Source of the DNA: Octopus vulgaris
Lineage: Eukaryota
DNA length: 64,000 bases
Assembly: GCA_951406725.2 (NCBI GenBank)
Contig: OX597831.1
Span: forward strand, 42,346,001-42,410,000
Direction: 5' to 3'
Under the pieces are notes generated by a model that made no database searches, was not told where the DNA came from, and saw nothing but the letters and a program-made list of their open reading frames with translations. Shown in pieces: positions 689 through 59,980 of this stretch. The stretch's first letter is position 1, and each line of letters begins with the position of its first letter. The translations under genes were made by a program, and so were the position numbers.

Positions 689-945
689 ATCGTTGCTATT
701 ATGCAAAAGTGTTGTAAGTCCAAAACGTTGCTTTTTCAGAAAATGAAAAAAATAGTTTCACGAATCCATAGCAAAACTGTTGCACTACACTTTGACAATT
801 TTTGATATCTTGGCATCTGAAGCAGCTGGAGATCTGATTGTTTGACTAAAAGAACTGGCTATTGCAAGCAAAAATAAGTATTGGAAAAAAAAGAAGTTAT
901 TTGGCCAAATTTGGACATACGATAGTTTAACATAATAGCAATGAT
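689..945. repeat. Fold-back element with ~36-bp imperfect terminal inverted repeats next to a (TA)n tract
   Basis: atcgttgctattatgcaaaagtgttgtaagtccaaa (689-724) matches the reverse complement of 910-945 (atcattgctattatgttaaactatcgtatgtccaaa). Confidence 0.6.
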
Positions 946-957
946 GTTATATATCCC

Positions 958-1356
958 GTTTCATCTTTGAAATTAGACCGTAGTCATGGTGACATATTAC
1001 CTTAAAGAATTTTAGTTGAATGAATCGACCACATTACTTATTTTTGATTTTTCTTTTAAGAGTGCTACTTATGCTATTGGTCTCTTTTGCCGAACCACTA
1101 AGTTACAGGGAATGTAAACAAGCTAACACCATTTGTCAAACTGTGGTGTACGACAAACAGAGACCACATTCTCACACAACGTGTGTATGTATGTGTATGC
1201 ACACACACACACAACAAGTATCTAACAAATCTATTCACAAAGCTTTGGTTGGCCTGCTGCTCTAGTGGAAAACATTTATCCAAAGTGCCAGGCAGTGGGA
1301 CTGAATCTGGAACCATGTGTTTGGGAAGCAAACTTCTTGCCATACAGCCGTGCCTG
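958..1356 (-). mobile_element. tRNA-derived SINE, family A (degraded copy)
   Basis: Collinear similarity to 2375-2718 and 35446-35853 (gccgaaccactaagttac...cacaaagctttgg...gcagtgggactgaa). Confidence 0.75.
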
Positions 1357-1374
1357 TACCTAGATATATATGTA

Positions 1375-1621
1375 TCACGTGACGACATGACCGACCAGAC
1401 TATCAGATGTTGCTACACATCGCTGGTCACAATGCGTTCGCAGGCCAACAGAAGAAAGAGTGGTGAAAGAGTACAGCAGGGATCACCACCCCCTGCCGGA
1501 GCTTCGTGGAGCTTTTAGGTGTTTTCGCTCAATAAACACTCACAACATCCGGTCTGGGAATCGAAACCGTGATCCTACGACCGCGAGTCCACTGCCCTAA
1601 CCACTAGGCCATTGCGCCTCC
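1375..1621 (-). mobile_element. tRNA-derived SINE, family C
   Basis: Minus strand begins ggaggcgcaatggcctagtggttagggcagtggactcgcgg...ggtttcgattccc (A/B-box-like head); similar copy at 39325-39615. Confidence 0.8.
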
Positions 1622-2374
1622 TATATATGCTGGTGTCATAATATAAATATGCCTGTGTGTATGTATGTGTTCTCATTATGGGGAGTGTGCATTTTACTTG
1701 AATGAAAATTCGTTGACTTTGTAAATTAATCTTTAAGTTGGAAGCCTGAATAATTTTCATTTAAAAGTAAATGTGGATAAAAAAAACAAAACAAAGCAAA
1801 TTTCTTTTTCAATGAATCATCCTCATCACCATCACCTCCATCCTCCACCTCCTCATCATCATGATTACCATCATCATTTTTATGTCTGCTTTACCATGCT
1901 CACATGGCTTGGGCCAGTGCCTCTTGATTTGTTGTGTTGCTTTGTCAACTCTTTCATTAGGTTCAACATACTAAGACTGAATTGTACCAATCCTCCTCAT
2001 GTCTACCTTGGTCTTTCTCTTCCACTGCTTCCAAGCCTTTGGAACACCTGGCTCTTCTTTATCCCCCATTTTATTCCGCTCCTCTATGTCAATCACTTGT
2101 ACAAGTTCCTTTAAAAAAGAAAAAAAAAATGTTTGTCACATTCCTATAAAACATTTGTGTGTGTGTATGTGTGTGTTTTTATAAATATATGTCTAGTTAG
2201 GAGAAATAAATAAACAATTACGACCAATCATATTCTGCATTAGTATTCACTGCATTTTGCTTATGTTGCCTGTATGTATTTGGTTGTTACCAATTTGGGC
2301 TACAGATAGCAGATTACACTACTTCAGAACTGCTCACTGCTATTCTTTCACAACTAAACAAAACAAATATATAT

Positions 2375-2718
2375 TCTTTTACTCGTTTCAGTCATTTGAC
2401 TGCGGCCATGCTGGAGCACCGCCTTTAGTCGAACAAATCGACCCCAGGACTTATTCTTTGTTAGCCTAGCACTTATTCTATCGGTCTCTTTTGCTGAACT
2501 ACTAAGTTACGGGGATGTAAACACACCAGCTCCGGTTGTTAAGTGATGTTGGGGGGACAAACACACACACACGACGGGCTTCTCTCACTAAATCTACTCA
2601 CAAGGTTTTGGTCGGCCTGAGGCTATAGTAGAAGACACTTGCCCAAGGTGCCACGCAGTGAGACTGAACCTGGAACGAAGTGGTTGGTAAGCAAGCTACT
2701 TACCACACAGCCACTCCT
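2375..2718 (-). mobile_element. tRNA-derived SINE, family A
   Basis: Minus-strand head aggagtggctgtgtggtaagtagcttgc...ggttcagtc, internal (CA)n, conserved tail; more than 15 related full or partial copies in the window. Confidence 0.85.
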
Positions 2719-2810
2719 ATATCTATAAAAAAACACGGGCAAAATACCGTTAAGCATTTCGCCCGGCACACTAATGTTTCTGCCAGCCTGCCACCTTATA
2801 TATATATATA

Positions 2811-3658
2811 TATTGAATTATTTCATAAATAAAGTGGTTTTTTTCAATCGCATGAACTAAAAGCTGGAGGGGGATGGGATAAACTACCTGCATCAACTTG
2901 CTATAAAACCAGGTAGTAATTTTACCTTGTACTTATTCTTAGTGTAAGTTTTGAAGAGTGCAGTTCGATTTTAAAGCTATAATAGAAGGGAAAAAGGCGC
3001 ATATTCAATAACACAATGGAAAGTGCAAGGAATATCAATGCAATATATGGGGATTGGACAATAAGCTTAACCCAGTGTCAACGGTGGTTCCAGAAATTCC
3101 AAGATGGAAACTACAGCCTAGAAAATGAGCCTCATCCTGGAAGGTCTGTAGAGCTTGATGTGGATGTCCTGCAAATCCTGGTGGAAGAAAATCCCATCAT
3201 AACCGTTGAGGAACTAGCAGAAAAGCTTGGATTTGGTCATTCAACCAGTCATACAGTCATAGACACCTGTGTGCCATCAGAAAATGACCATCTTTGGTTT
3301 CAAGATGAAAGGTGTTCTTCCATCAGCAAGGATGACATTCCAAAGGCTGGAGTAGTTTGAATGGGAAATGTTGCCCTACCCACCATATTTGCCGGGCACT
3401 GCTCCGTTTGATTTTCATTTATTCTGCAGTCTTCAAAATCATTTGGATGGAAAAAATATGAATTCTGTAGACGAGGTCAGAACAGTACTGACAAGTGAAT
3501 TTTGGAAGAGGAGCCTTGCAAGACTACCAGATAGATGGGAAAGCATTGTAGAAAATGAAGAAGAATATATTTTAGATTAAAAAAGAACTTTGTTTATCTT
3601 AATTTTGAAAAATAAAAGGAGTATTAAAAAATCGCATTATTTATGGGATGATTCAATA
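2811..3658 (+). mobile_element. Internally deleted mariner (Tc1/mariner) DNA transposon fossil
   Basis: ~30-bp imperfect TIRs (tattgaattatttcataaataa / ttatttatgggatgattcaata) flanked by TA. ORF pieces 3016-3360 (HTH: CQRWFQKFQDGNYSLENEPHPGRSVE) and 3368-3580 (LPYPPYLPGTAPFDFHLF, resembling mariner YSPDLAPSDYHLF). Confidence 0.9.
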
Positions 3659-4895
3659 TATATATAACTTTACAAGGAAAAGGGAGACTGTCAAGTTTCA
3701 TCTTGCTCATCAACAAGGTCAGTTCTGATTTACTTAGTTGATTGTATATATGTTCTACTTCCAAAAGTTAAAATTGAAATTTCCAAATTGGATATATCCT
3801 AAGTAAACAAAAACAAACCGTCTATTATGGAGATGTAAATAAACTAGTACTGATTGTCAAGTGGTTGGATGTACACCACAGACACAAAGACTCTCTCTCT
3901 CTCTCTCTCTCTCAGAGCTTACCCATGTGCATTGTGAGACTGAACTCAAACCACATGGTTGCAAAGTGAGCCTATTAATCATACAGCCATGTCTGTACCA
4001 ATCTCTAGCATTTGTCATAAACATTTTTTTTCTCTTAATAGTTACTGTGTATGTTTGAGCTTTATACAGATACAAGTAGGTGTAAGGAAAGAAGGATGTA
4101 CTACTGATATTACTTGTTTAAAAAAATAAACATTTTTTGTTGTTGTTGTTTGTGCATAAATTCAATTCTCGATTTCACAACATACACATTCCATGTTACC
4201 TGAGTACAACTTGGTACAGCCATGTGTAAACGTACAGCAATTAACAATACAGAATATGATTGGTTGATAATTGTTTCCTCCCCACCTTCACTTCTAACAT
4301 ACAAACATACAAACATGTTTACACTCTTACTTTTTTCCTTGTTACAAATACAATCCCATTCTATTGTAAGTATATATTCTTAATTATTAATGAATTTAAG
4401 CTTTTTTTTTTATTCATTTACTGTAAATTAACAGAGAAAGTCATAGAGATTATGAGGTTCTTGAAAAGTTGTGCACTTATGCCATATTTCACCTACCTAC
4501 ATGCCATACTGTGCTCTACAAGATAGAACGTTCATACATATCTTAACATATATACATACACACAGTGTTTCCGAATAACTCACTTACACACGCTTCATTT
4601 TTGTATCTGGTTTGCAAGATTCTTTATGTGAATTTGTGTGTTGAAGCAAATTAGATTGTGTCTGGGGAGAGTCATATCGTCTTAATGTCTTATATTTATA
4701 TATATACATATATATATATATAAATTTTTTCCCCCAAAATAATTTTTGTTGGTCTTGCAACCTTGTCAATGGATGTTGACTCACATCCACTGACAAAGTT
4801 ACAAAAGCAATGAAAGTTTTTGTTAAAAAAAACCCCAACTAAATATAAATAATAGATGAATGGAAATCAAATCAGTGTGTTAGATAATAAGGCAT

Positions 4896-6113: not shown

Positions 6114-6297
6114 TAAACATTTTTTGCTCTGATAAGTACTGCTGAAATTGGAATATATCTAATATACCTGTGCATCTTTTATACCTTCAAATATGTTGTG
6201 TGTGTATGTATATATATATATAGCAATTATGCAGATAAATTAAATATAACAGTGTTAGCTTGATAGCCAAAGTATATATATATATATATATAAATAA

Positions 6298-6409
6298 ATA
6301 AGTACATTAAAAGGCCCCTAATTAAAGAAGCAAGTACTAGATACACAAAGAGGGGATAAATTCATGAAATGGATTGCTTCTTTATTTAGGGGCCTTTTAA
6401 TGTACTTAT
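6298..6409. repeat. Short fold-back element, 36-bp inverted repeat
   Basis: ataagtacattaaaaggcccctaattaaagaagcaa vs reverse complement of 6374-6409, one mismatch. Confidence 0.85.
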
Positions 6410-6520
6410 ATATGAATAACTTATAGTCTAATGACTAATTTGTCTTTTGTGCTAGATCACTGGTAATAATAATTTATTTTATTACTCTATTTACTATATA
6501 TATATATATATATATATATA

Positions 6521-6663
6521 TGGAAAAAGAAAAAGTCAATATAGAAAATGCTAAAAACATTTCAGTACCGGTTTCAGTCATTGAGACTTTTTCAACTGGA
6601 ATGTACTGAAATGTTTTTTATTTAATTATTTTAGCATTTTCTATCTTGACTTTTTTTTTTCCA
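6521..6663 (-). mobile_element. Fold-back element in (TA)n containing a degenerate hammerhead-like motif (6558-6603)
   Basis: Nested inverted repeats. Minus strand reads cattccag-TTGAAAA-agtc tcaat gact-GAAA-ccg-GTA-ctgaaatg. Confidence 0.6.
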
Positions 6664-12385: not shown

Positions 12386-12555
12386 TTCAATATGTAGCGA
12401 TGTATAATTACGTTTCTGATGAACCCTGTGATTTAACCTTTAACCAAGGAGATGTGATTACTGTTATGGCAATGGAAGGTGACTGGTGGACTGGTAATAT
12501 TGGCGATCGATCTGGAATATTTCCTGCTAACTATGTGAAGAAAATGGAAGTTCAG
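12386..12555 (+). CDS. ITSN1: Intersectin SH3C domain exon (phase 1-0)
   Basis: [56 protein letters not shown], closely resembling vertebrate ITSN SH3C; ttccag acceptor, CAG|gtaagc donor. Confidence 0.95.
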
Positions 12556-12999
12556 GTAAGCCCTGTTCTTTTTACTGTCTTCTTTTGATTTTTATAAACT
12601 GAAATAAATATGAAACTGATGAATGTAGTAACAATGATTTGCTTGGGTTATGCGCAAGGCTAAGTCTTGTAAGAGAGAAACGTTTGTATGTATGTGTGTG
12701 TGTGTGTATGCATATATATATATATGTATATGTATATATGTATATGTGTAATGTATGTGTGTGTATATATGTGTGTGTAATGTATGTGTATGTATATATG
12801 TATGTATATGTGTAATATATGTATGTATATGTGTAATGTATATGTAAATATGTGTAAAATATGTATGTAGGTATGTGCACAAAAACAAAGGTGGGTGGCA
12901 GAAACACTTTGTTGTCTTTAGATATCTTCTGAGTTCAGATTCTGATTAGGTTCCCTTCAATTTTTTCATGCCCCCACCCCAAAAAATGAACTGCCCAAT

Positions 13000-13380
13000 C
13001 TTTCTGGACTCCTCCTCTGCCCTAGGTTCAGTGAAGAAGGACCACTCATCCAAGCACCGCATGTGTGCAGGTTTACAGCTACAACTCAATGGTTACCTCC
13101 ACTCATTGTTTCACTGCTCTCCCATTGCTGCAGGACTTTGGAAAGAAAAGAGACATAAGTGTACAACACAGAGACATGAGTGTGAATGTAGTATGGTGGG
13201 AAAGCCTTGGCACAAAGACAGTTTCATTCTCTTGGCCTCGGAAATCAGGGTTCACTGGCATGAAGATCTTTGCAAATGGTGGCCTTTCTGGCTGCAGGAG
13301 TTGCTGGCCAATAGATTGGATAAATCCTTTTCATTGACCACTTTGGAACTCCGGCTCTGGATTTCTTCTCTGGGTTAATT
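13000..13380 (+). mobile_element. Possible degraded L1/Tx1-type LINE 3' fragment
   Basis: GC-richer island; translation contains LHSLFHCSPIAAGLWK, resembling the CCHC/zf-RVT motif HxLFxCxxxxxxW. Confidence 0.35.
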
Positions 13381-15773
13381 CCCATAGTCTTTCACAAAGT
13401 TGGATGTAGCTGCAAGGCAGCAGAGGTTTTACACCAGAGTTTTCCTTCTTCATGTTACATTCATTAAAAAGATAAATATATCATGGAAGCAATATCTGGA
13501 AAAAAAAAAAAAAAAATGTACAGACATAAAAACAGAAAATTAGGAACAGATTCTTGTATACTTGATGTTATTTAGGTAATAACTTTCATTCATATAAATT
13601 TTATGACCATTCATATAAATTTGTTGACAAATGTGAATTAGTTGTTAATGAAGTTTTATGATGGTATTAAATTGATAATGTGTGGTATCCTGTCATCAAC
13701 CCTAATCAGGACCTGTTATCAAAGGTGCTCTGGCTGTGGCCATCCAGTCCTATCTGACTTATACTATAATGGGAAAATGGATGTAAAATATGATGATGAT
13801 GATCTAGGGCTACATTATCCAGTGTATCCTTAGTATCCAGTAGAATGTGATTTGAGGAAGATTTGGCTGCTATTTCTAGCTGGCCAAGCAACTACATGGG
13901 AACCTTCCTCCTTGATTCTTTAAGTGTGCAGTTGCTGTTTAGCCCTAGGTTACTTCTGATTGAGTACACTTATAATCAAGTGTTCTCTCTCTGACCATTT
14001 CGTTCCTTTTATATATCTGGGACTAAGTAATCATAAGTATCCTTCCTTCATTATTTTTTCCCCTTTAAATATTAGCAAATTGTTGCTCATTTTGGTTGGT
14101 CAGCTGACTGAATCAACACAGCTATGAGATTGATTCTTTTGGTTCTGTTGTGAGACTTAAGGATAAATTACTCGGTTCTTTCAGACAGCTTAACAATCTC
14201 AACCATTCTTGGTTGATAGTATAAACTGAAGGTAGCAGTGATTAAAATCATTTAGTCATTCATCTTAACTGTGGTCCAAGATTTTAAGCATAACGAGAAA
14301 CAAATTGCCCTTATTAAATTATTAGTTTGAAATCAGAATGATTGTTGATGATATAAAAGCAACATAAGTCTTTTTTTTTTTTTTTTTTTTTTCTAAGTAA
14401 GTGGTAAAGTGGAATAAAAGAGTACATAAGTGTCAGGGACAGTTATTGTACACTGTATGTGAGAAAGAAGGGCTGAAAAAGCACTTGGATTTGTGAGATA
14501 TTTACTGGGTAAAGATGTTTAATATGGAATTTGAAAAGCTGGAGGTCACAGTGTTCATACTGGAAAACTGGGGTCTTCAAAAATTTTCTTTAATGTTTTT
14601 CAAAGATACAAAAATGACAGAGAATTTGATAATGTGGAACCTAAAGAGCATGCTTGCTGCATAGTAGCAATGAAATTCTTTCAACTGTTAAGTCTTTGAG
14701 TAACATTGTGATTGTGATCTGCTTTGCCATTTGTTTCGCGACTTCTTTGTGAGCTTCAAGCCTAAACGAATAATCTCATTCAATTTTGCTGCCTTGATCA
14801 TGCTAAAACCGAAACTATGTTGAATCATTATGTGATCTTTGTTTTGTATGTATTATGTTTTTTGTTATTTTGTTTTTATATCTTGCAATTAATTTCAAAA
14901 GTGTGATACTTGAATCTTTAAGTTAATTTTAAATTGCTTACTTGTGTGTGTGTGTGTGTGTCTGTGTGTGTGTGTGTGTAAATATTTATGCATGTATATT
15001 GTGTATGTCTATATGTATGTTTATAAGTATGTGTACATGCACATATGTATATGTGTATCTATACACGTATATATACACATGTTTTTATATACATACAATA
15101 TATATGAGTGTATATACACAGACAAATATATGTATAATTTAAGTGTGATTTGCACATTTTCTTTCTGTGTCAGTTTTATTATTACTATTGTAGTGCTTTG
15201 ATCGTATTTTTTAAAATTATTGTTCATTATCAGTCACCTTTCTTTAAGTTTAGTCCTTGTTACATAATTTAAGTGTAAGTTATAAATTATATATTATATA
15301 TTATGCTTGTTCTTTGCACTTGATATTTCTTATGATGTTTTGGTACATTATAAAGTGTATTCATTTAAACCTCACCTTCTTTTTTTTTTCTTTTTTTGTT
15401 TTCTCTAGTAAGGTGTACCTATTGTATATGTAACGTGGTTTCAAAGTTTAGTTCAGTGTTATCCCATCTCACCCTCTGTTAAGTTTTGGTTTAATAATCA
15501 CTGTAGCTGTTTAGCTTAAGGAGCAGAACATTAAATTATTATCCCCTCAAAATGAGAGGTGTATTGTCTGTTGACTAATATCTGATTACATTCTTCCGGA
15601 AGCTGTTTATTTAATTGTGACTTATGTATTTATCATGGGTTCAAGAAAGCTATAGAGTGTTGCACAAGCTCTCAGCTCTGAGTACACTACTTTTGAAAGC
15701 AGAAACATCTGTAAGCTAATAGATGTGATTACATAACTCTTGTTCTTTTGTCATTCATTACTATAGATATACA

Positions 15774-16289
15774 TCTCTCTCTATATAAACGGCAGTTTGT
15801 CTGTCTGTGTGTCTGTCAGGTTGTACCCTCACCCTGACCACGGCTTTCAACCGATTCTGATGAAACTTGATACACACATAGCCCAATGTCATAATTCAAA
15901 ACTAACGCAGCGAAAATTTTGGGAAGTTCCCCCAGTTCTGAGAAAAATTGATAAATTCGACATGGGGTCGAGAATCTAAGCTTTTTATTTGCAACACATT
16001 TTCTGTTGTAGTTTTCGCAACTTGCAATCGATTTTGACCAAACTCATGTTGAAGCTTAATGTTACCCTAAGAAACTTAATTCTGACGTTAGTTTTCCATG
16101 CAATACCTTACCATCAGAAAAAAATCAATAAAATCATACCATTTTGGGAGATCGCGTTCAAATTCAAGATGACATATTTTCGACAATATCTTTCACAAAT
16201 TGGCAGGAATTTTTTTAAAATTCACAGCGAGCATCATGTCTGCTCCAGGGGCTCTTACATACCCGCGCAATGCCGGGCTATGCTGCTAG
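15774..16289 (+). mobile_element. Non-autonomous Helitron
   Basis: Inserted between A and T; 5' TC; subterminal GC-rich hairpin cccgcgcaatgccggg; 3' CTAG. Confidence 0.8.
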
Positions 16290-17483
16290 TATATATATAT
16301 ATATATATATATGAATTTCTAACATTGTAAAACACAGTGGGTTTTGTTGTGAAGGTATAAGACAATGATATTGAGTGCAAGGTGTTTGGGAGCATAGCAA
16401 GCAAAACTAAACCATGAAGTGTACCCAGGGGTTCAAGGTGTTGGGTTTATGTTCGAAAAATTCTGGGTTCCAGTCTTGAATCAGGCAGCATATTGTCTCC
16501 TTTGTTTTGTGTTGCTTCAGTTTATACTCAGCTGAATATGAGTACCAACTGAGTGATTGTGTAGCTTTCTCTCTTTCTAAGTGTTACATCATTAATGTTC
16601 TGCTCAATCAAAATTTGCAAGGTCTGTGAGGGTGCCTATGTCTGCTCATGAGTACATAGACACTGGAAACAATTAGCAAAGGCCTTAATACATGATTCCC
16701 AGGTTCAACTCGTTTCTGAGTGATAGCTATGATAATTTTTTTTTTTTTTTTGGTATATTTGACACATTTAGTGGAGGAAGAGAATATTAGCAAAATTTCA
16801 GAAATTTTCTTTTTTCATCTTGAATGTATATTTGGAACTTTGTCGTTATTCATGCAAACGAAAAACAGAGCTTAATTCACAATCTTTCACATCAAAATTA
16901 AAGTTGGAAGGTTGGTAATAAAGACATGAAGAACAGGAACAAGATTTCAAGTGTTGTCAAGACAAATAGTATTGTAACAAATCCAATGGCTACATATGAA
17001 TTAAAAGGATTTAATGAAACAAAATTCTGATTGTCTCCTTTCAATATATCAACATATATTAGACAATAATAGTTCACTTAAATACATATTCAGATTTGTA
17101 AATAATTCACTAACTCACAGAAATTACGAATCTAAAACCTCAATATTCTTTGGAAACCTTTAAATGACTTTTGTGACAGATTTGTAAAATGTTGAATGTT
17201 CCATTTCTCCATTGAATGTGTCATTTGAATAGTAGTAATTAATAAGAAGAAAGAGATTCCGACTACAGCTTTGGAAGAAGGTGTCTATGTATGAACTTGG
17301 GAACTTTAGAGTGTTTTACAATATGCTGTATATATGGGATGGTGAACTTTTAGTTACTATATTTGAGGAAGGTGTGTTTTTTTTAATGATAAAATCATTA
17401 TAAATGAAAGCAATTAATGTTAAAATAAATCATATTCAATTCTTTAGTTGGTTTCAGTGTGTAAAAAATTTGTTATTCCTTAA

Positions 17484-17706
17484 CCGTTTAGCATTCAAAT
17501 TTTTCTGCCAAATTTAATGCTTGTTTATTCAAATTATTTTGAAGAGACCATGCATTTTTTGTAGCTTTGAACTTTCAGTGATATGGTTGTTCATTTTTAG
17601 AATGGCATAACATTGTAGGGCGGGTTTGCTAGGCCAGATCTGGCTGCTTTGAAATCCAACAGGTGGAATATTTGGGTCTGATATGGCTGATGTAAATACT
17701 AAAGGA
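17484..17706. mobile_element. piggyBac-type MITE
   Basis: TTAA on both sides; TIR ccgtttagcatt / aatactaaagga; body shared with five other copies. Confidence 0.8.
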
Positions 17707-18166
17707 TTAAATCAGTGACTATTAATCCTTTGGCAACCACCCTGCCTGAAATTGCTTCCAGTTTTATGGTAGATGTTATCCATTTTAATGAGCTTGTTTA
17801 TTGTCAGTCTTAAATTGAAATGTTCTACTGTAATTTTATCTAATCTACTTTTTTTCTTCTTCAAACCACTAGATTAATAAAAAAACAAAAAAAAACAAAA
17901 AACATAATAGACTAAGTTAAATGTCTCTAAATTACTGATTATTTCAAAATTAATTGAAACATACAAGTAGTGTATTGAGTTCATTAGAAAATGTTTTAAA
18001 GAAATTCATTGTCAAACAGAATACAATTTTCTTTTTCTTGAGATTGAAAACTAAAAGCGCAATTCAGGATTGAAACAAAGGCATTTAGATCTGTCTTTTC
18101 CCTTCTTCCTTACTTCAACATCACTACTAATAAGATAGTCTGCATAGTATTCCATGTGTGTATGTT

Positions 18167-18204
<38 letters not shown>

Positions 18205-18310
18205 TACATCCATGTGTGTATATATGTATATACACACATGCACATATATATATATATATATACATGTGCATGTGTATGTGTGTGTGTGTATATATATATA
18301 TATGTATATA

Positions 18311-18529
18311 GTCGAAGAGGTGCTGAAATGTTCCTGGCTTTAAGGGTATTGTAATAGATTTGGTTGGAGGCTCAACCTCCTGAGTTCTTTTACAGAGCTT
18401 AGTAAAACTGAAAGACCACTGCAAGAAGTATGTGAATCTGAGAGGGGAAAATATGTTGAATAAAACCATAATTAACTGATCCTCCTGTATTTTTACCCCA
18501 AACCGGAAACTTTTCAGCATGCCCTCATA
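18311..18529. mobile_element. Mariner-derived MITE in a TA microsatellite
   Basis: Imperfect TIRs cgaagaggtgctgaaatgttcctggc / ccggaaacttttcagcatgccctcata. Confidence 0.65.
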
Positions 18530-18814
18530 TACATATATTATATACACACACACACATGCTTACTTACACACATATATGTGTGTATATATAGATTTGAGTG
18601 TGTGTGTATATATATCCCATCTAACAATGAATTCTATCCCTCTACATAAAGCTTACTATTGTAGCTCACCCCCTAACTAGTTAGTTGCACCTTTTGACTT
18701 CTCTTCTACCAAATCTGTTGTCAGCCAATGGCAATTTCTTTCATTTTTCATTTTTTTTTTTTTTTGTACTGGGCTGTTCTCCATTTACTAAGTTTGCTGT
18801 TTTTGTGATAATAG

Positions 18815-18991
18815 GAAGATTTCGGAGGTGTCCTAGAGACTGTTGCGACCACAAGTATCATGCCTGAATTGGCTGTGGCCCCGGCTGGGGATAGTACAAC
18901 CAATGAGACAGCCACTGTGATTGATGACCAAACTGACCTCTCTGTGCAACAGTCACAAACTCCACCTGTTGTTGATGATGGCATGTTGTCT
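18815..18991 (+). CDS. ITSN1: Probable intersectin linker exon between SH3C and SH3D: EDFGGVLETVATTSIMPELAVAPAGDSTTNETATVIDDQTDLSVQQSQTPPVVDD...
   Basis: atag acceptor in phase 0 matches the SH3C donor; coding-like composition. The 3' end is uncertain: TCT|gtgtgt at 18991 (phase 0) or G|gcatgt GC donor at 18980 (phase 1). Confidence 0.6.
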
Positions 18992-19164
18992 GTGTGTACC
19001 TTAACTTACTCTCTGCAACTACTAATAACCTTTCTCCTACTCTCCCTCTCTTGCTTTCTCACTTGCTCTCCCTCTCTTCCTTATGGATGCTTTCCTCCTC
19101 GTACTAATTCATCTTAGAACCTTTTGTCAATGTTACCCTGCTGTTTACAGTTTTGCTTATTGAT

Positions 19165-19267
19165 GACATCATCATCGTCATCGTCATCATCATCGTCGTC
19201 ATCATCATCATCATCATCGTCGTCGTCATCCTCATCGTCGTCGTCGTCATCATCATCATCATCATCA
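19165..19267. repeat. (CAT/CGT)n trinucleotide microsatellite
   Basis: Direct inspection. Confidence 0.95.
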
Positions 19268-19319
19268 ATAGCTGAATGATTTACAATACACCTTGTCTTT
19301 CATCTCTCTCTCTCTGGGA

Positions 19320-20510
19320 GTTGATTAGTCAAGAACTGGGGTTGATGGTTTAGGCTTAAATCTCTCCCTTCAAAATTGCTGGACTTTTTATAAATTGGAA
19401 TCCATTATTATTATTATTATTGCTGTTGAAAGCAAGGCAGAAATCTGGTAGAATCATCGTTAGCGCTCCAGACAGAATGCTTAGCAGCATATCGTTCAAA
19501 TTTAAATTCTGAGTTCAAATACAGCCAAGGTCGACTTTACCTTTCATCCTTTCAGGGTTGATAAAATAAGTACCAGTTGATCACTGGGGTCGATGTAATC
19601 AATTTACCCAGTTGCTCAGAATTGCCAGCCTTGTGCCAAAATTTGAAACCATAATTATTATTATTGAAAATAAGGTGGCATTGGACAAAATACTTAACAA
19701 TATTTCTTTTGACACTTTTACAATCTGAGTTCAAATTCTGTCAAGATTTATTTGGTCTTTTATCTTTATGGGGTCAATAGAATAAGAATTAGTTGAGCAC
19801 TCGGGTTAATGTAGTCAACTTACCACCTCTCCCATAAAATTGCTAGCCTTGTGCCAAAATTTGATAGAATTATTGGTATTGTTATTGAAAGTAAGGCAAT
19901 GAGATAGCAGAACCATTCGCTCTGGATAAAATGCTCAGCAACATTTTTTCTGGTGCTTTATGTTCACATACTGCCAAGGCTTACTTAGCCTTCCATCCTT
20001 TTGGGGGTGATAAAAAAAAAAGTTTCAATCAAATGCTGGTGTCAGTGTAATTAACTAACAACCATCCCCCTGAAATTACTTCCCATTTGCCAAAATTAGA
20101 GGGAATTATAATTATCATTGAAAGTGGTGGAGTGGTAGAAATTATAGTAGAGTGGAATAAACAACTTGCCGTTTTCAATCTTGTTTTGGCATTGCCCTGA
20201 GTTCAAATTCTGATACGGTAGATTTCTGTTTCTTTTACCACCCAAGGTCAATGAAACTTAAGTACTTGACTCAGTTAAATTGACTGACCTTTGTTAGAAA
20301 TGATCATCATTCCAGACAGTAAATGATAGCATTGGTAGGTTGTTTGAATAAATGGTTTCTAGTATTTAGTTGTGGCCTTTCACATTACGAGTTCAAATTC
20401 TGGTTGGGTTAAGATCTTCCTTTATCCACTCCGGGCCAGTAATATGAAGTACTTGTCATGTATCAAATTGGATTGAATTGGCTATTGTCTAATATTAAAT
20501 TTGTGGCCTT
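19320..20510 (+). mobile_element. Head-to-tail array of about 6 family B SINEs separated by (TTA)n
   Basis: Repeated ttctgagttcaaat...gtcgactttacctttcatcctttc.gggttgataaaataagtaccag (Nin/Deu-domain-like core). Confidence 0.8.
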
Positions 20511-20521
20511 CTATGTTTTAT

Positions 20522-20880
20522 TTTTTACTTGTTTCAGTCATTAGACTGCGGCCATGCTGGGGCACTGCCTTGAAGAATTTTAGTCAAATGAATTGACCTC
20601 AGTATTTTTCTTTTTGAGCCTGGTACTAATTTTATCAGTCTCTTTTGCTGATCTGCTAAGTTATGGGCATGTAAACACACCAACACTGCTTGTCAAATGG
20701 TGTTGGGGGACACACACACAATAGGCTTCTTTCAGTTTCTGCCTACCAAATCCACTCACAAGACTTTCGTTGGCTCTAGGCTATGGTAGAAGACACTTGC
20801 TGAAGATGCCACACAGTTGGACTGAACTCAGAACAATGTGGTTGGGAAGCGAACTTCGTACCACACAGCTGTGCCTGCGC
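20522..20880 (-). mobile_element. SINE family A
   Basis: Similarity to 2375-2718. Confidence 0.85.
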
Positions 20881-40030: not shown

Positions 40031-40140
40031 TTAATTATATATAATCTGACTCCTCAGATTTTTTGAATGCTGGACTACTGGTTTTAAATTGATATTAAAA
40101 TTAATATTAATTTATCTCCCTCAATTTTTAAATATATATA

Positions 40141-40172
<32 letters not shown>

Positions 40173-40244
40173 CCGGAGTAAACACATAAATGTGAAACAA
40201 GGTGGAAAAAAGAGTACTCAACTACCAGTGGTAGAGTAATATGC

Positions 40245-40402
40245 TTTATTTAAAGCAGCAGAAAATTCAACAAAACTGTTACTCTGAGTTTCCCATTGCC
40301 GTTCATCGGACAGTTTTTGCTAGAATTCTAGCAAAAACTGTCCGATGAACGGCAACGGGAAACTCAGAGTAACAGGTTTTGTTGAATTTTCTGCTGCTTT
40401 AA

Positions 40403-40407
<5 letters not shown>
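40245..40407. repeat. Near-perfect 163-bp palindrome with a hammerhead-like motif on each strand
   Basis: 81/82-nt arms centred on GAATTC (40323-40328). Plus strand 40333-40380: aaaactgt-CCGATGA-acggcaacgg-GAAA-ctcaga-GTA-acaggtttt. Confidence 0.9.
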
Positions 40408-40466
<59 letters not shown>

Positions 40467-41750
40467 TTTAAATTTGTTTATGTGAAATGTTTTTGGGTGC
40501 ACTCATGAAAAGCTCCTATACTATTTATTCTTGCTACTGCTTATTGTTCTCATTTTTCAGAGTAATTTTATGGGAAGGTTATTAGAAGAATGATTTGCAA
40601 ACTCCATGGATTTTAAGGGCAATATTAATACATGTGTTCATTTCTTCAGGCAAAAGTTACATTAGTGTTCTGGCTGTATTGAATGTTTCGATACACTGAG
40701 TTTGTAGGAGAGAAGTTGATTAGAGCTCTCTCCACCTTCATAAAATATGTACCTGCTAATTAACAAGAGTTCATCTAATTGTCTTTCCTCCCACAGACTT
40801 TGTGGCATTGTTTCTAAGTTAGGCATCAACATACAGTATAGATGTTATATCTAATGTCTGATAGCATATATATATCTTCTCTTGAGCTTTTGTTAACAGT
40901 ATATTTCAAATAATATATTATGTGAATATTTTCAAGGGCTATTTGGGTTTTTTCTTTATACATACACAGTCATGTACTTTTTCTGCAGGCTAAGAGTTAA
41001 AGTTGATTTTTGATATGAAAACAGTTTTGCTAGACTTCTATGTAGACACTTAAAACTTTTTCTCCTTTCTCTCTCTCTTTATTGCCAAACTACTAATGCT
41101 CTATGCAGAAAAAGATAAAACAAGAAAGGATGGAAAAAAAACTATAATAAATTTCCACCTATAAGAAAACTCAGGCTTCATAAAATGTTTAGTTAATACA
41201 TCTTAGTTTATGTCATGCTAATGATTTCTGAAAAGAATGAAATAGTGCTTTAAATGATTACCACAGACTAAAAATGTTAAGAACTTCATAATAAACAAGA
41301 AAAAGCAAAAAAAAAAAAAATTAAATATATGTATTCAATGCTATACCTCTCTTTCCTAAATCTTTAATTTCAAATTCTAACTTCTTATCCTGCTAAATAT
41401 CATGAAGAAATGATTATCTCCCTTATGTTAATTGTTCACTAAGGGATACCATACACCTTATATTACTATTAGACAAATATGTATTTATTTTTGCAACATT
41501 AAATTCGTTTCAGTGGATCATTGGTGTGTGTGTCTCTGTGTGCGTGTATATATATATATATATATATTTTAAATACTATTGGATTTTACTCATAAGGTAT
41601 TGGAATCTTATATGTATAGCATTCTGCCTAAAAAATGAATCTACAAATACAATATCCCTACAAATCTCATATTTATTTTCTTTCCTCTACCTCACTCTCT
41701 ATTTGGTATCTTATCTAAATTAACTATAACTTTACCATCCTCTCACACCA

Positions 41751-41796
41751 TCTCCAATGAAGGGATATAATAAATATCCTGGAAACAGCTGTAAGA
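41751..41796 (+). ncRNA. Degenerate hammerhead-like motif
   Basis: tct-CCAATGA-ag ggatat aataa atatcc tg-GAAA-cagct-GTA-aga; core mutated. Confidence 0.45.
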
Positions 41797-41881
41797 CCTA
41801 TCTATAAATGTTCTAAAATCTACACAGCCTTGGCTTTTTATCTTATTACGAAAAAAAATTTTATATATATATATATATATA

Positions 41882-42100
41882 TAGGGTTGGCTAAAAGTCA
41901 GCTGACAGTAAATCAAAACCATTTAATTCCAAGATTTATTTATGTTTAACAACTGAATGAATTTGATAAAAGCATCTAAATATGATGCATCATGAAAAGT
42001 GCTTCTTGAGTGACATGTTTTTCCATTCGAGTTAATACAGAATTACTGGTAGTATTTATGGAATTTTGATTTACTGTTGGGTGACCTTTGGTCAACCCTG
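41882..42100. mobile_element. Tc1/mariner-type MITE in (TA)n
   Basis: ~37-bp imperfect TIRs agggttggctaaaagtcagctgacagtaaatcaaaa / ttttgatttactgttgggtgacctttggtcaaccctg. Confidence 0.85.
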
Positions 42101-42134
42101 TATATATATATATATATATATATATCATTGGACT

Positions 42135-42630
42135 TTAAACTCTGCTTGCGAAGACCATTTGAGGGAAGTGAAATCTAAGTCGAAATCAAAATCGGTGACT
42201 GGCATCTGTTGCTAGTGGAGCGCTAAGAGTACTATACGAATGAGATCGTTGCCAGAGCAACAAGCTGGCCTCTGTGCCGATGGCACATTAAGCACACCAT
42301 TTAAGTGTGATCGTTACCGCATCGCCTTACTAGCACTTGTGCTGGTGGCACGTGAAACATTCGAGCGAGGTTGTCGCCAGTGCCGCTGGACTGGCTCTCG
42401 TGCAAGTGGCACGTAAAAAGCACCATTTGGGCGTGCCCATTGCCAGTACCACCAAACTGGCCCCCATGCCGGTGGTACGTAAAAGCACCCACTGCACTCT
42501 CGGAGTGGTTGGTGTTAGGAAGGGCATCCAGCTGTAGAAACTCTGCCAGATCAGATTGGAGTCTTGTTCGCCAGACCCCAGTCAAATCGTCCAATCCATG
42601 CTAGCATGGAAAGCAGACGTTAAATGATGA
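42135..42630 (+). repeat. Interspersed repeat with internal tandem ~60-bp units
   Basis: tggcacgtaaaaagcacc-like motif recurs 4 times; tail (gaagggcatccagc.gtagaaac...ccatgctagcatggaaa) shared with 33770-33960 and 11410-11485. Confidence 0.75.
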
Positions 42631-42737
42631 TATATATATATACACACATACACACTGTATGATATAAATTAATTCAGAAACTGTAGACTGTTTTATGCCA
42701 ATTCTTTCATTTCTCTCTCTCTCTGCTTCTTTTTCAG

Positions 42738-42911
42738 TTGAACAAGTTACCTGTATGTACCCTTATACAGCTCAGAATTCCGATGAGCTGACATTCCAGA
42801 AAGATGATGTGATCAATGTTATCAACAAAGATGACCCCGATTGGTGGAAAGGCGACCTAAATGGAATGATTGGTGTATTTCCATCCAACTACGTCGCTGT
42901 CGCTAACTCTT
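42738..42911 (+). CDS. ITSN1: Intersectin SH3E domain exon (phase 1-1)
   Basis: [57 protein letters not shown], closely resembling ITSN SH3E; ttttcag acceptor, T|gtaagt donor. Confidence 0.96.
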
Positions 42912-49318: not shown

Positions 49319-49692
49319 ATATTAGACAGAATGAGATAACAAATCCAAGGCTGTGAGGAGTTTTTAGGATATTTATAATCAAATAGGCTTACAGCAGATT
49401 TCACGGCTCCATGCTTTGAAATCACTAAATATGAACTGCTTTTGGAACTTACATACCATGTACAGGAAACTTTTTTACCACTTCTATACACCATTTTTTT
49501 CGAATAATGGAACTGCAACTACAATATTTTTATATATCTTATTTTTACTTTAATTCTCTTATTTCCCTCTATATTCCCTGTCTTTTCCACAATAGTTCGA
49601 ACTCAAATATTTTCAGCTGTAAGATTATTTCATTATAAATGTCCTGGAAACTCCTCACAGCCTTGGATTTGTTATCTTATTCAATCTAATAT
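49319..49692. repeat. Fold-back element with ~77-bp arms
   Basis: Arms 49319-49396 and 49616-49692; the arm sequence resembles 41788-41847. Confidence 0.8.
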
Positions 49693-53168: not shown

Positions 53169-53366
53169 TACTCATGTATATATATATATATATATATATA
53201 TAGTGGTTGTATAAAGTCAACATAACGTGACAGTCCCGTAAAGGGAATTACATCACCGCTATATAGCCCTAGGAAGCATCGACGCTTCCTGTCGGCTTTG
53301 ACACATTTGCTGTGTCCTTATATTTGCAATGGGGAGGCAAGCACCCCCACCAGCCAGAACTAGCAA

Positions 53367-53412
53367 CCTGGAGACATGCATGTTTCTGGGTCTTGCCCGT
53401 CGTCAGTCCAGG
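53367..53412 (-). ncRNA. Type I hammerhead ribozyme with intact core (Penelope-like/retrozyme type)
   Basis: Minus strand: cctgga-CTGACGA-c ggg caaga ccc a-GAAA-catgcat-GTC-tccagg. 6-bp stem I extends to 53320-53460; palindromic stem III ACATGCATGT; GUC triplet. Confidence 0.85.
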
Positions 53413-53705
53413 GTAGCATGTCCTAGCTAGTGATGATACTTACCAGGCCTTTGCAAATATATCTATTTACAGTGAAATTTATTCACTGGTCACCATAATT
53501 AGAAATATATATATGTATATATATATATGTGATAGTTGTACATTACACTTAATTATTGTATCTGTTAAAATTCTTTTGTTGTTTCTTAATTGTAATTGAT
53601 ATATAATTGAATAAATAACACTCACACTCATAATACATAGGCATTTAATTTATATTTTTACAATCCAGCTGTCCTTTCACACGGAATTTCGTCTATCTTT
53701 AAACT

Positions 53706-53782
53706 GTGACTGACGAAACTTATATATAAAGGAATTGTTTATATATCAAAAAATGTAAATAAGTCGAAACAAATTGTTGGCC
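53706..53782 (+). ncRNA. Hammerhead-like motif with poor stem I
   Basis: CTGACGA-a acttat...ataagt c-GAAA-caaatt-GTT; stem I does not pair. Confidence 0.4.
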
Positions 53783-57133: not shown

Positions 57134-57480
57134 ATATTTTTCGATGCTGTTGTTGTTATTATTTTTATTATATCATTATTATTTTTTTTTCAGGGCACTT
57201 CCTGGAATCAAACTTGGAATCTTGAGGCTACTAACCCCAAGATTCCAAGTTTGGTTCCAAGCAGTGACTTGAATAATAATAATAATGATAATAATAATAA
57301 TAATAATAATAATAATATTAATAATATTAATAATAATAGCATCGAAAAATACCTTAAGAATGAGAACCCAGGTTCAAAGTTTCCCCAGGACACCTGAAGA
57401 AGGCTGGAGTGTATATCAGCCGAAACGTTGTGTTAACAACAAATAAGATGAAGACAAATATCCATCAAATGTAAATAATG
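57134..57480 (+). mobile_element. Hammerhead-bearing repeat with an upstream fold-back and (TAA)n
   Basis: Hairpin 57204-57259 (ggaatcaaacttggaatcttg / caagattccaagtttggttcc); outer inverted repeat tatttttcgatgct / agcatcgaaaaata. Confidence 0.7.
57389..57434 (+). ncRNA. Minimal type I hammerhead ribozyme (stem III reduced to the palindrome AACGTT)
   Basis: gacac-CTGAAGA-a ggctg gagtgtatat cagcc-GAAA-c-GTT-gtgtt. Confidence 0.8.
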
Positions 57481-57961: not shown

Positions 57962-58191
57962 AGGTGGCGAGCTGGCAGAGACGTTAGCACGCCGGGCGAA
58001 GTGCTTCGCGGTATTTCGCCCGTCGCTACATTCTGAGTTCAAATTCCGCCGAGGTCGACTTTGCTTTTCATCCTTTCGGGGTCAATAAATTAAGTACCAG
58101 TTACGCACTGGGGTCGATGTAATCGACTTAATCCGTGTGTCTGTCCTTGTTTGTCCCCTCTATGTTTAGCCCCTTGTGGGTAGTAAAGAAA
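57962..58191 (+). mobile_element. SINE family B, well-preserved full-length copy
   Basis: aggtggcgagctggcagag...gagttcaaattcc head plus Nin/Deu-like tttcatcctttcggggtcaataaattaagtaccag core. Confidence 0.85.
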
Positions 58192-58659
58192 CGTATGTTG
58201 AAGAAAAATTGACTGAAAACCATTTTGGTCAGAAAAAACGAAAAAGTGGCATGTTCATTAATATTTCTGTTTCTTTCAAAGAAATAGGTTTAAAAAAAGA
58301 CAATGATTTATTGACATTGGAATCAACTGTTACAATGATTTAAAGTGTTAAAATTCGGAAATTGTTAGAGTATAAATCAGAGTTGACAGATTACAAATTA
58401 TGTACACAACTTGTCATGAAGCTTAGGAAATAATTTGAGATAAGCGTATAATAATTAACATTCAGTAGCATTTCTCACTGTCTCTAGTTTGCATCTCCAT
58501 GCTAGCATGGCTTAATTTTTCTGAGTGAGTGTTTTACAGTGGAATACCCCTTCTTGTCACTAACATTTTCAACACACAGAGATGGGATGTACCTGTTCTA
58601 AAACTCTCAAATGGGAACCACCTCACAAATTTGTGTCTCTCAGAAAGATATATCTTTTT

Positions 58660-59068
58660 GCCTTTTACTTGTTTCAGTCTTTAGACTGTGGCCATGCAGA
58701 GGCACCGCTTTCAAGAATCTTTTAGTTGAGTGGATCAACACCAGTGCTTATTTTTATTTCAAGCTTGGTATTTATCTTGTTGGTCTCTTTTGCTGAACCA
58801 CTAAGTTACAGGGATGTAAACACACCAATACTGGTTGTCAAGAAGTGGCAGTGAGGGACAAACACATACACATATATATGACGGCAGTGGCAGTGGGGGA
58901 CAAACACATACACATATATATGACGGGCTTCTTTCAGTTTCTGTGAAATGCACTCACAATGCTTTTGTCATCTTGAGACTATAGTAAAAGACACTGGCCC
59001 AGTGTGCCACACAGAGGGACTGATCTTGGAACCTTGTGGTTGGGAAGCAAACTTCTTACCACACAACC
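58660..59068 (-). mobile_element. SINE family A with a short internal duplication
   Basis: Similarity to 2375-2718; gtggcagtg.gggacaaacacatacacatatatatgacgg x2. Confidence 0.8.
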
Positions 59069-59285
59069 TATGCTGGACATGTAATGATTAAATGAAGTTA
59101 ACTGTTTTAAGTATTAGCCAGTAGTATCCATTAGCTTGTTCTGGTCATGTGAATTTGTTAGGAAATAGGTGGCATGAAGAAGTTGTGCAGTGCATCAATG
59201 TCCACCTATATTTTTACAATATTGTATTATTATATATGGAGTTACAGAACATGATTTTATATGTGTGTGTGTATATATGTGTATG

Positions 59286-59320
<35 letters not shown>

Positions 59321-59501
59321 ATGTATGTATATATATGTGTATGTATGTATATATATAATTGTTATCATCTACCACATACTGAAGTAGCTGAGAGATGTAA
59401 CTTATATATGGAGAGAGAGAGAGATAAATTTCTGTGTGTGTGTATGCACACACATATACTTCCATACATGTGCATATACATGTGTGTGTGTGTGTGTATG
59501 T

Positions 59502-59533
<32 letters not shown>

Positions 59534-59713
59534 CAAGTAATCCAATAGTACTCATAAAGAAGAAAAAAATAACTTGATGTGTCATTCTACAAAACATATA
59601 GAATATATAGTACACTACATGAGAAAACAATGAGTGATTAAAGCCATAAATGACAGAGAAACGGTTTGATGAAATTTTATTTAACAATAAGAAAATTCTA
59701 TATCGTGACAAAT

Positions 59714-59980
59714 TGTTTTGTAACTTAAAAGCATGTAACTAATTTGTATTATTATATTTAGTTAATTAAATAAATTACTTATATGCCTGTATTAATGGAA
59801 AATGCAAAAAGTCCTTCAGAATAATGCAGGATTTAAGTTATGGCCTGAAGTGAAAGAAAGTCTTTGTTAAAAATTCTGCATCATTTTGAAGGATTTTTTG
59901 CTCTTTGCATTAACGCAGACATGTAAGTAATTTATTTATTATTAAATTTAATTATATAAGTTATTTTAAGTTACAGAACA
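59714..59980. repeat. Fold-back element with ~120-bp imperfect arms
   Basis: aataaattacttatatgcctgtattaatg..gcaaaaagtccttcagaataatgcagga pairs with 59872-59936. Confidence 0.8.

What the first reader, a model, noticed from the sequence alone, without database searches (positions are those of the whole stretch)
689..59980. A class of microsatellite-associated fold-back elements carrying minimal hammerheads (candidate retrozyme-like system)
Seen: at least ten short (110-370 bp) inverted-repeat elements from several sequence families lie in or beside (TA)n/(TAA)n tracts. Eight loci share the pattern [CUGANGA or a decayed version]-stem II-GAAAC-(near-)palindrome-GUH: 6558(-) ACCGGT, 8876 ACATATGT, 23487, 39977 and 41751 ACAGCTGT, 40333 ACTCAGAGT, 53367(-) ACATGCATGT, 57389 AACGTT. 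These elements have no coding capacity and no DNA-transposon-type TSD that I could see. Inference: they are non-autonomous Penelope-type retroelements or pseudo-LTR relics that would be misannotated as MITEs, at roughly one per 7 kb. Plus-strand copies lie inside or just downstream of the intersectin transcription unit. I cannot verify whether these families have been described.
Basis: partly seen in the sequence, partly recalled or inferred. Interest (0 to 1): 0.8.

Follow-up and report, generated by a model that had tools for sequence, protein, structure and literature searches.

The report
Penelope tail-end fold-backs with hammerheads
The short hairpin-shaped repeats beside TA microsatellites are real and several carry small hammerhead-ribozyme motifs, but they are most likely the ordinary head-to-head tail-end insertions of Penelope-like jumping genes rather than a new class, with one small oddity: most of the motifs have an extra unpaired base next to the catalytic core.

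Summary
The motifs are real. Three intact type I minimal hammerheads occur where 200 shuffles give almost none; one more has the known U3-A8 core, one element has a one-mismatch core in both arms, one copy is decayed, and two listed loci lack a core. Fold-backs and their closeness to microsatellites exceed chance, but half of the 14 carry no hammerhead. In all 7 that can be oriented, the motif points outward: two 3' ends joined head-to-head, turning just upstream of the core. Contigs from four runs show the youngest element is a family of thousands of contigs with copy-specific turning points, a 5' continuation, and short and long 3' ends running into (TA)n. This is the published insertion architecture of Penelope-like elements, not unit-amplifying MITEs or tandem retrozymes. 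No reverse transcriptase was found, so membership and autonomy are unproven. This scan noted the same architecture before in other genomes. Left over as possibly new: an extra variable base between stem II and G12 in five families, 6-10-nt stem III palindromes, and an optional tail of about 70 nt. Interest is low to moderate.

The parts
6522..6662 (-). Fold-back F; hammerhead on the left arm (6563-6598, core 6595-6589 is the U3-A8 covariant), pointing out to (TA)13; inverted arm starts 3-4 nt before the predicted cleavage site
   Evidence: U3-A8 cores in PMC4209133 and PMC3088659
8766..8926 (+). Fold-back G; both arms keep GAAAC-palindrome remnant pointing outward, no recognisable core
15647..15754 (+).
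   Evidence: E 5e-14 to the 23553 copy
23359..23618 (+). Fold-back B23; intact-core hammerhead 23487-23569 (stem I 5 bp, stem II 11 bp, unpaired A on both sides of stem II) with a decayed inverted arm 23458-23359
39814..40039 (.).
40173..40407 (.). Fold-back C, young (arms 80 of 81 aligned letters alike); hammerhead with U4>C core in both arms (40342-40348 +, 40309-40303 -); palindromic turning point 40325/40326, 16 nt upstream of both cores; left arm 72 nt longer; (TA)n on both sides; member of a high-copy family
41751..41847 (+). Family A single arm; two-mismatch core 41754-41760, stem II 7 bp, tail homologous to the arms of 49320-49691
   Evidence: score 74 vs maximum 43.5 in 1965 random windows
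49320..49691 (.). Fold-back A49, family A tails pointing outward, hammerhead decayed or cut off
53203..53461 (-). Fold-back D; intact-core hammerhead 53367-53412 (stem I 6 bp, 10-nt palindrome, GUC); the inverted arm 53407-53461 begins at the first base after the predicted cleavage site and overlaps the 5' strand of stem I
53710..53777 (+).
   Evidence: read from the sequence
57389..57434 (+). Textbook minimal hammerhead (bulged base, G10.1-C11.1, stem II 6 bp, stem I 5 bp), downstream of (AAT)n; not itself in a fold-back
   Evidence: consensus in PMC4209133 Fig. S3
57187..57275 (.). Separate small fold-back without hammerhead, upstream of (AAT)n
690..944 (.). Fold-back, no scored hammerhead
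4725..4832 (.). Fold-back; core-like heptamers point outward in both arms by eye, not passed by the scan
6294..6413 (.). Fold-back, no scored hammerhead
36421..36482 (.). Fold-back, no hammerhead
37700..37753 (.). Fold-back, no hammerhead
59714..59980 (.). Fold-back with arms of about 120 nt, no scored hammerhead; could be a true MITE
12391..42907 (+). Span of three SH3-coding exons (12391-12543, 32768-32881, 42746-42907) of an intersectin-like host gene; B23, B39, C and A lie in its introns

Best explanation
The hammerhead-bearing repeats are most likely 5'-truncated 3' ends (pseudo-LTR pieces) of several families of Penelope-like retroelements, and each fold-back likely forms anew during insertion when two copies of the same end are joined head-to-head. 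Inferred steps: the element's GIY-YIG endonuclease nicks AT-rich DNA such as (TA)n; reverse transcription starts at one of two sites on the RNA, giving a short and a long 3' end; synthesis stops after 50-200 nt, often just upstream of the hammerhead core; the product turns back by self-priming or a template switch at a short palindrome or at stem I, so both 3' ends face the flanks. Shown: the motifs, their outward polarity, the unequal arms, the palindromic turning point, the high copy number and variable joints of family C. The genomic copies are likely dead as ribozymes: weak stem III needs a dimer, and flanking hairpins are predicted to outcompete the fold. Whether the source RNA is an autonomous element or a short passenger is open.
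For: Motif excess over shuffles. 57422 fits the published consensus exactly and 6575 has the published U3-A8 core. Outward polarity in 7 of 7 orientable fold-backs (1 in 128 if random, but only six families). Hammerhead arm starts 5-6 (F), 6 (D), 12 (B39), 16 (C, both arms) and at most 33 nt (B23) upstream of the core., stretch 40168-40408 at >=85% likeness: 6749, 5247, 3988 and 1720 contigs laid in 4 of 4 runs (four organism labels, four studies); U4 present in 36, 60, 80 and 53% of depth; the other listed changes within the motif are at N7, loop II and the extra base before G12, none listed at G5, A6, G8, A9, G12-A15, the palindrome, GUA or paired positions; depth at the turning point about 1% of arm depth; 15 of 61 joints shown, all different, 8 of the 15 rejoining 10-18 nt upstream of the core; loose ends show a shared 5' continuation and (TA)n directly after both a short and a long 3' end. 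11-bp direct repeat around B39. Same architecture in print: inverted 5'-truncated copy, optional tail, microsatellite bias, palindromes at head-to-head junctions read as self-priming, opposite-strand motif pairs 100-700 bp apart, two reverse-transcription start sites and AT-rich cleavage.
Against: No reverse transcriptase or GIY-YIG piece among 430 frames, no genome held, so the link to a protein-coding element is not shown. Six of the seven scored motifs (five families) have an extra base between stem II and G12, absent from the published consensus (1 of 56 listed motifs shows AGAAA). The optional tail of C is about 70 nt against 30-40 in print; D's is about 115. Seven of 14 fold-backs have no hammerhead and may be something else. 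The 6575 stem II and GAAAC resemble the 3' end of the window's commonest SINE (median score 29, reached by 21 of 20000 random windows). Only one family was tested with contigs; contig depth is not copy number, contigs break at palindromes and (TA)n, the 85% filter hides divergent copies, and joints upstream of 40325 could not be placed. No listed joint of family C falls on the predicted cleavage site, so cleavage-defined ends have no support there. Rfam returned no hammerhead family among the rows shown.
Confidence: 0.78

Rival explanations
1. The sources are dedicated short non-coding passengers (150-300 nt, hammerhead plus tail) that borrow Penelope proteins; the fold-backs are their insertion products. 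This differs from the best reading only in the source RNA.
For: Thousands of contigs cover only about 170 nt of family C and depth falls steeply just upstream of the core; none of the window's copies extends into an ORF; retrozyme monomers are described as dispersed derivatives of pseudo-LTRs.
Against: Loose ends show that some copies continue 5' of the turning point; steep 5' truncation of autonomous elements gives the same picture; the reference ended 16 nt upstream of the core.
Confidence: 0.35
2. The fold-backs are units that amplify whole, as MITEs of DNA transposons (TA duplication hidden in (TA)n) or as fixed palindromic retro-units.
For: Terminal inverted arms, no coding capacity, TA flanks; a mariner HTH fragment lies in the window; 7 of 14 fold-backs lack a hammerhead and 59714-59980 has long arms.
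Against: For family C the turning point is rare and joints vary between copies; arms are unequal at the outer ends (C, D, F); families A and B occur both as single arms and as fold-backs with different turning points; 11-bp repeat at B39.
Confidence: 0.07
3. A retrozyme system in the strict sense: tandem hammerhead units transcribed, self-cleaved and circularised, with these loci as scattered monomers.
For: Type I motifs with palindromic stem III suited to dimer cleavage; one contig joint runs from 40358 back to 40325, a partial head-to-tail tandem (table 5c); molluscan retrozymes are known.
Against: No tandem hammerhead array in the window; the motifs follow the minimal Penelope type; arrangements are head-to-head.
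Confidence: 0.1
4. The motifs are chance matches in AT-rich palindromic DNA.
Against: 0 of 200 shuffles reach the counts under the same rules; family-wide variation avoids the constrained positions and restores U4.
Confidence: 0.03
5. Locus 6575 alone is a fold-back of a SINE 3' end whose hairpin mimics stem II.
For: Ten SINE ends share the hairpin-GAAAC-NN-GUA layout with it.
Against: Similarity is borderline and other hammerheads score up to 26 against a SINE end; 6575 has a known covariant core, a palindrome and stem I, the SINE ends none; its tail does not match the SINE.
Confidence: 0.15

Closest known systems
Minimal type I hammerheads of metazoan Penelope-like elements (Cervera and De la Pena 2014, PMC4209133; main text parts 1-2 of 4 and supplement file 2 parts 1-2 of 3 read)
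   Same: CUGANGA-H core, short stem I, palindromic stem III, U3-A8 variant, mostly single dispersed motifs, some pairs on opposite strands 100-700 bp apart; molluscan examples listed (limpet, oyster).
   Different: Here five families have an extra base before G12 (1 of 56 listed motifs shows it) and palindromes of 6-10 nt, at the long end of the listed range; no cephalopod term found in the supplement searched.
Insertion unit of endonuclease-bearing Penelope-like elements (Arkhipova et al. 2013, PMC3846280; Craig et al. 2021, PMC8557442; passages read)
   Same: Head-to-head inverted 5'-truncated copy, palindrome at the junction, optional tail on one arm, variable 8-11-bp duplications, microsatellite bias that hides duplications.
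   Different: Here no ORF is attached, so the whole insertion is 140-370 bp; optional tail about 70 nt (C) or 115 nt (D) instead of 30-40.
Poseidon element of the green anole in vitro (Frangieh et al. 2024, PMC11167929; parts 1-2 of 4 read)
   Same: AT-rich cleavage on both strands, two start sites of reverse transcription giving two 3' ends, hammerhead near the ends, no reads ending at the cleavage site.
   Different: No protein identified here; spacing of the two ends is longer.
Animal non-LTR retrozymes (Cervera and de la Pena 2020, PMC7229834, passages; Li, Clavereau and Pollet 2026, bioRxiv 10.64898/2026.07.22.740005, parts 1-3 of 5, supplements not seen)
   Same: Non-coding, type I hammerhead, derived from pseudo-LTRs, dispersed monomers exist.
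   Different: Retrozymes are defined by head-to-tail tandems and circular RNA; these are head-to-head, single, and no RNA was examined.
MITEs of DNA transposons
   Same: Short, inverted arms, no ORF, AT-rich sites.
   Different: Unequal outer ends, copy-specific middles, single-arm copies and an oriented RNA motif.

Membership tests
Type I minimal hammerhead (PLE type) | Core CUGANGA ... GAAA ... NUH | tested here: met
   Exact at 23553, 53386, 57422; U3-A8 covariant at 6575; U4 restored in family C contigs. Not met at 8876 and 39977 (+ arm).
Type I minimal hammerhead (PLE type) | Stems I and II closing the core, palindromic stem III | tested here: met
   Stem I 3-8 bp, stem II 2-11 bp, palindrome 4-10 nt at 7 scored motifs.
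Type I minimal hammerhead (PLE type) | One bulged base after A9 and a G10.1-C11.1 pair directly before G12 | tested here: inconclusive
   Met at 57422 only; the other 6 scored motifs have one more base before G12, variable (G, A or U) in family C.
Type I minimal hammerhead (PLE type) | Self-cleavage (as dimer or protein-assisted) | not testable with these tools
   Only folding predictions; contigs cannot show RNA ends.
Penelope-like element (EN+) | ORF with telomerase-like RT and GIY-YIG endonuclease | tested here: inconclusive
   None in the window, expected for truncated ends; genome not held.
Penelope-like element (EN+) | 5' truncation with adjacent inverted copy, head-to-head | tested here: met
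   7 of 7 orientable fold-backs; variable joints in family C.
Penelope-like element (EN+) | Optional 3' tail on one arm | tested here: met
   Two 3' ends in family C about 70 nt apart; length outside the 30-40 nt in print.
Penelope-like element (EN+) | Partial tandem forming a pseudo-LTR | tested here: inconclusive
   None in the window; one contig joint of that kind.
Penelope-like element (EN+) | AT-rich or microsatellite targets, variable-length duplication | tested here: met
   one abutting 11-bp repeat, other candidates no better than chance (264 of 1000 random intervals give >=9 nt).
Non-LTR retrozyme | Two or more head-to-tail units each with a hammerhead | tested here: not met
   None in this window; rest of the genome not examined.
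Non-LTR retrozyme | Circular monomeric RNA | not testable with these tools
   No raw RNA reads were on offer.
MITE | Copies share both ends and a fixed internal structure | tested here: not met
   Family C; families A and B within the window. Not tested for hammerhead-less fold-backs.
MITE | Fixed-length target duplication | tested here: inconclusive
   TA duplication invisible inside (TA)n; 11-bp repeat at B39.

The most novel reading that the evidence does not exclude
This animal lineage carries several high-copy families of very short Penelope-dependent RNAs built on a variant hammerhead, with a one-by-one internal loop at the base of stem II and a long self-complementary stem III, which cleaves as a dimer; their head-to-head insertions seed roughly one intronic hairpin per 7-9 kb and so supply double-stranded RNA to editing and small-RNA pathways, and the snap-back at stem I seen at 53407 is the step that makes the inversion.
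Probability: 0.2. Interest if true: 0.55.

Novelty: new member of a known kind. Interest (0 to 1): 0.26.

Why it matters
As read here it matters mainly for annotation: MITE-like fold-backs in this genome are largely retroelement ends, and standard hammerhead descriptors that demand a 10.1-11.1 pair next to G12 would miss most of them (1 of 7 found by the strict scan). If the extra-base variant cleaves, it widens the known natural hammerhead core and the count of genomic ribozymes; thousands of short copies with mappable turning points would also give a large natural data set on how Penelope elements make inverted ends, a step the literature calls unresolved (PMC8557442).

Tried and rejected
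Whole-genome analysis: no genome held. Rfam: no hammerhead family among 150 of 239 rows shown for the window or in two short stretches (9 and 0 matches); only hairpin-driven miRNA matches below cut-off. ARAGORN found 0 tRNAs, so my impression that 57225-57275 is a tRNA-derived SINE head (recalled) is untested. Pfam on 430 open frames of >=45 residues (low-complexity frames dropped beforehand): no RT or GIY-YIG. Metagenome scan with core plus the family A/B palindrome: 0 of 37 loci form stem I>=4 and stem II>=3. Idea that arms record A-to-I edited RNA: D shows 5 G/A differences in one direction, but over 14 fold-backs A/G differences were 41 and C/T 46; rejected. CpG decay as the source of U4 in family C: other CpGs of the motif and the G of the same CpG show no listed change, so a subfamily difference is more likely. 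Cleavage-defined 5' ends: fits D (exact) and roughly F, but none of the 15 joints shown for family C. Duplication search: only B39 stands out. No RNA holder was listed and no raw reads were offered, so expression and cleavage were not examined. Paper searches for a cephalopod report and for hammerhead + Penelope + MITE + head-to-head (0 papers) found none that describes these families; Repbase and Dfam could not be searched, Lunse et al. 2017 is not held, file 1 of the PMC4209133 supplement and the preprint's supplements were not seen, and any of these may already hold the families or the extra-base variant. That the genome is an octopus is my recollection from the look of its SINEs and comes from no call.

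Full report
Setting. The window is animal DNA (35% G+C, rich in microsatellites and in several SINE-like families). Three SH3-coding exons lie on the plus strand at 12391-12543, 32768-32881 and 42746-42907; the last matches GRB2 and intersectin 1 and 2 SH3 domains about equally and ends at a splice donor, so 'intersectin-like' is reasonable but not proven. No genome is held. That the animal is an octopus is my recollection, not a tool result.

Is the motif real? A strict scan for type I hammerheads (stem II directly before GAAA, with or without one bulged base after A9) found one exact motif, at 57422. Under the same rules 200 local dinucleotide shuffles average 0.000, 0.045 and 0.405 hits and none reaches the observed 3, 5 and 5; GAAAC plus a perfect palindrome of 8 nt or more plus GUH occurs 10 times against 1.05 (0 of 300). 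The 6575 core is not decayed: it is the U3-A8 covariant reported in Penelope hammerheads and elsewhere (PMC4209133; PMC3088659 section 8). A further remnant at 53710-53777 has an exact core but no stem I.

Are the fold-backs real? 21 clusters against 3.77 +/- 1.81 in 60 shuffles, at least three being SINE pairs. Of the 14 I delimited, 6 end at (TA)5+ and 10 at some microsatellite, against 0.55 and 1.08 by random placement (partly circular, as noted). Seven of the 14 hold a hammerhead or its remnant; seven do not.

Anatomy. In all seven orientable fold-backs the motif reads outward, so each is two 3' ends joined head-to-head. The arm that keeps the core starts 5-6 nt (F), 6 nt (D), 12 nt (B39), 16 nt (C, both arms) or at most 33 nt (B23) upstream of it. 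The partner arm is cut shorter: inside loop II (B39), near the palindrome (A49), 3-4 nt before the predicted cleavage site (F) or at the first base after it (D, where its first six bases are also the 5' strand of stem I, as a snap-back would give). C turns at a perfect palindrome with no spacer. Outer ends are unequal: the left arm of C is 72 nt longer, that of D about 115 nt. Families recur in different states: B at 15647, 23553 and 39814-40039 (E 5e-14 to 1e-15), A at 41782 and 49320-49691 (score 74 against a maximum of 43.5 in 1965 random windows). B39 is bounded by an 11-bp direct repeat with one mismatch.

One family in depth. Twenty of 24 listed runs hold part of the region, all as contigs, none on record as RNA. 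I laid four of them (four organism labels, four studies) on 40168-40408. 6749, 5247, 3988 and 1720 contigs fit at 85% or better. Within the motif the listed changes are at U4 (the canonical U in 36, 60, 80 and 53% of depth), N7, one loop II base (keeping a GNRA loop) and the extra base before G12 (G, A or U); none is listed at the other core, palindrome or paired positions. Depth at this copy's turning point is about 1% of that on the arms, no listed contig spans the stretch, the 15 of 61 joints shown are all different (8 rejoin 10-18 nt upstream of the core), and loose ends at 40325 carry a shared upstream sequence. (TA)n follows directly at a short end (40239-40245 and 40407) and at a long end (about 40171). 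Limits: depth is not copy number, contigs break at palindromes, and the reference stops 16 nt upstream of the core. Within them, the family is abundant, keeps a hammerhead consensus, has two 3' ends and folds back at copy-specific places.

Mechanism. This matches what is published for endonuclease-bearing Penelope-like elements: heavy 5' truncation, an inverted truncated copy at the 5' end, an optional 30-40-bp tail and microsatellite targets that hide duplications (PMC8557442 passages; PMC8969392 passages); palindromes at head-to-head junctions read as self-priming, with 8-10-bp duplications (PMC3846280 passages); mostly single minimal hammerheads, some paired on opposite strands 100-700 bp apart (PMC4209133); and, in vitro, AT-rich cleavage of both strands with two start sites of reverse transcription (PMC11167929). 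I therefore read the loci as insertion products of Penelope-type RNA ends. The enzymatic steps are inferred from those papers. No RT or GIY-YIG piece lies in the window (0 of 430 frames), so neither the clade nor autonomy is known. With 120-nt flanks, predicted stem I pairing is 0.00 for six of seven motifs and the seventh loses stem II; such motifs are reported to need dimers or protein. Activity in the host pre-mRNA is thus unlikely; long hairpins are the likelier RNA consequence.

Rivals. Unit-amplifying MITEs are disfavoured for the hammerhead-bearing families and remain open for the others, especially 59714-59980. Strict retrozymes need head-to-tail units (PMC7229834 passages; preprint 10.64898/2026.07.22.740005 parts 1-3), absent from the window. 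A short non-coding passenger as source RNA cannot be told from truncated autonomous elements. Locus 6575 resembles the 3' end of the commonest SINE at borderline significance.

What is left as new. Six of seven scored motifs, from five families, have an extra base before G12; the published alignment shows one AGAAA among 56 motifs (text extracted from a PDF), and one large search rejected hits with a mispair there. Palindromes of 6-10 nt and a tail of about 70 nt are at or beyond the published range. Searches found no paper on these families in cephalopods (Penelope elements are noted as abundant in coleoids, PMC8967140 passages), but repeat libraries were not searchable. Earlier notes of this scan describe the same fold-back architecture in other genomes and none for this sequence or genome; I formed the reading before seeing them and tested the turning-point claim here.

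Verdict. Observation partly confirmed; interpretation partly supported; new members of a known kind; interest 0.26. Most novel reading not excluded: short Penelope-dependent families with an active variant hammerhead (probability 0.2, interest 0.55).

Noticed in passing
window 29359, 30688, 36732 (+); 2389, 5376, 9200, 20535, 35467, 48969, 58675 (-): The commonest SINE-like family ends in a hairpin followed by GAAAC-NN-GUA, the same layout as the 3' half of a hammerhead, but with no core or stem I; coincidence, LINE-tail hairpin or hammerhead ancestry is unresolved.
   Followed up: partly
window 57187-57434: A small fold-back, an (AAT)n tract and the textbook hammerhead follow one another; if the first part is a tRNA-derived head (my recollection; ARAGORN and Rfam gave nothing) this could be a SINE-like composite with a Penelope-type end, or just a nested insertion.
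   Followed up: partly
window 53318-53372 vs 53407-53461: The arms of D differ at about 30% of positions, 5 of them G/A in one direction, yet core, stem I and the 10-nt palindrome are intact; no such bias over all fold-backs.
   Followed up: partly
window 40345-40407: An AUG inside the family C core opens a frame that runs to the end of the short arm (21 codons); in the anole element the ORF starts within the hammerhead, but this may be chance.
   Followed up: no
window 2986-3577: Broken mariner-type transposase (Mos1 HTH, Pfam PF17906, E 1.7e-09).
   Followed up: no
window 54749-54985 (-): Open frame that looks like a restriction-like endonuclease remnant of a non-LTR retrotransposon (recalled resemblance; no Pfam hit).
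   Followed up: no
window 42907-42920: The last SH3 exon ends at a splice donor with a stop codon just behind it, so a short (read-through) and a long (spliced) form are both possible.
   Followed up: no
window 59696-59994: 9-bp near-repeat around the hammerhead-less fold-back 59714-59980; no better than chance but compatible with a Mutator-type MITE.
   Followed up: partly
L020 and L022, 601-636: Two metagenome loci have exact core, bulged base, 4-bp stem II and the same palindrome as families A and B, but no stem I directly at the core.
   Followed up: no
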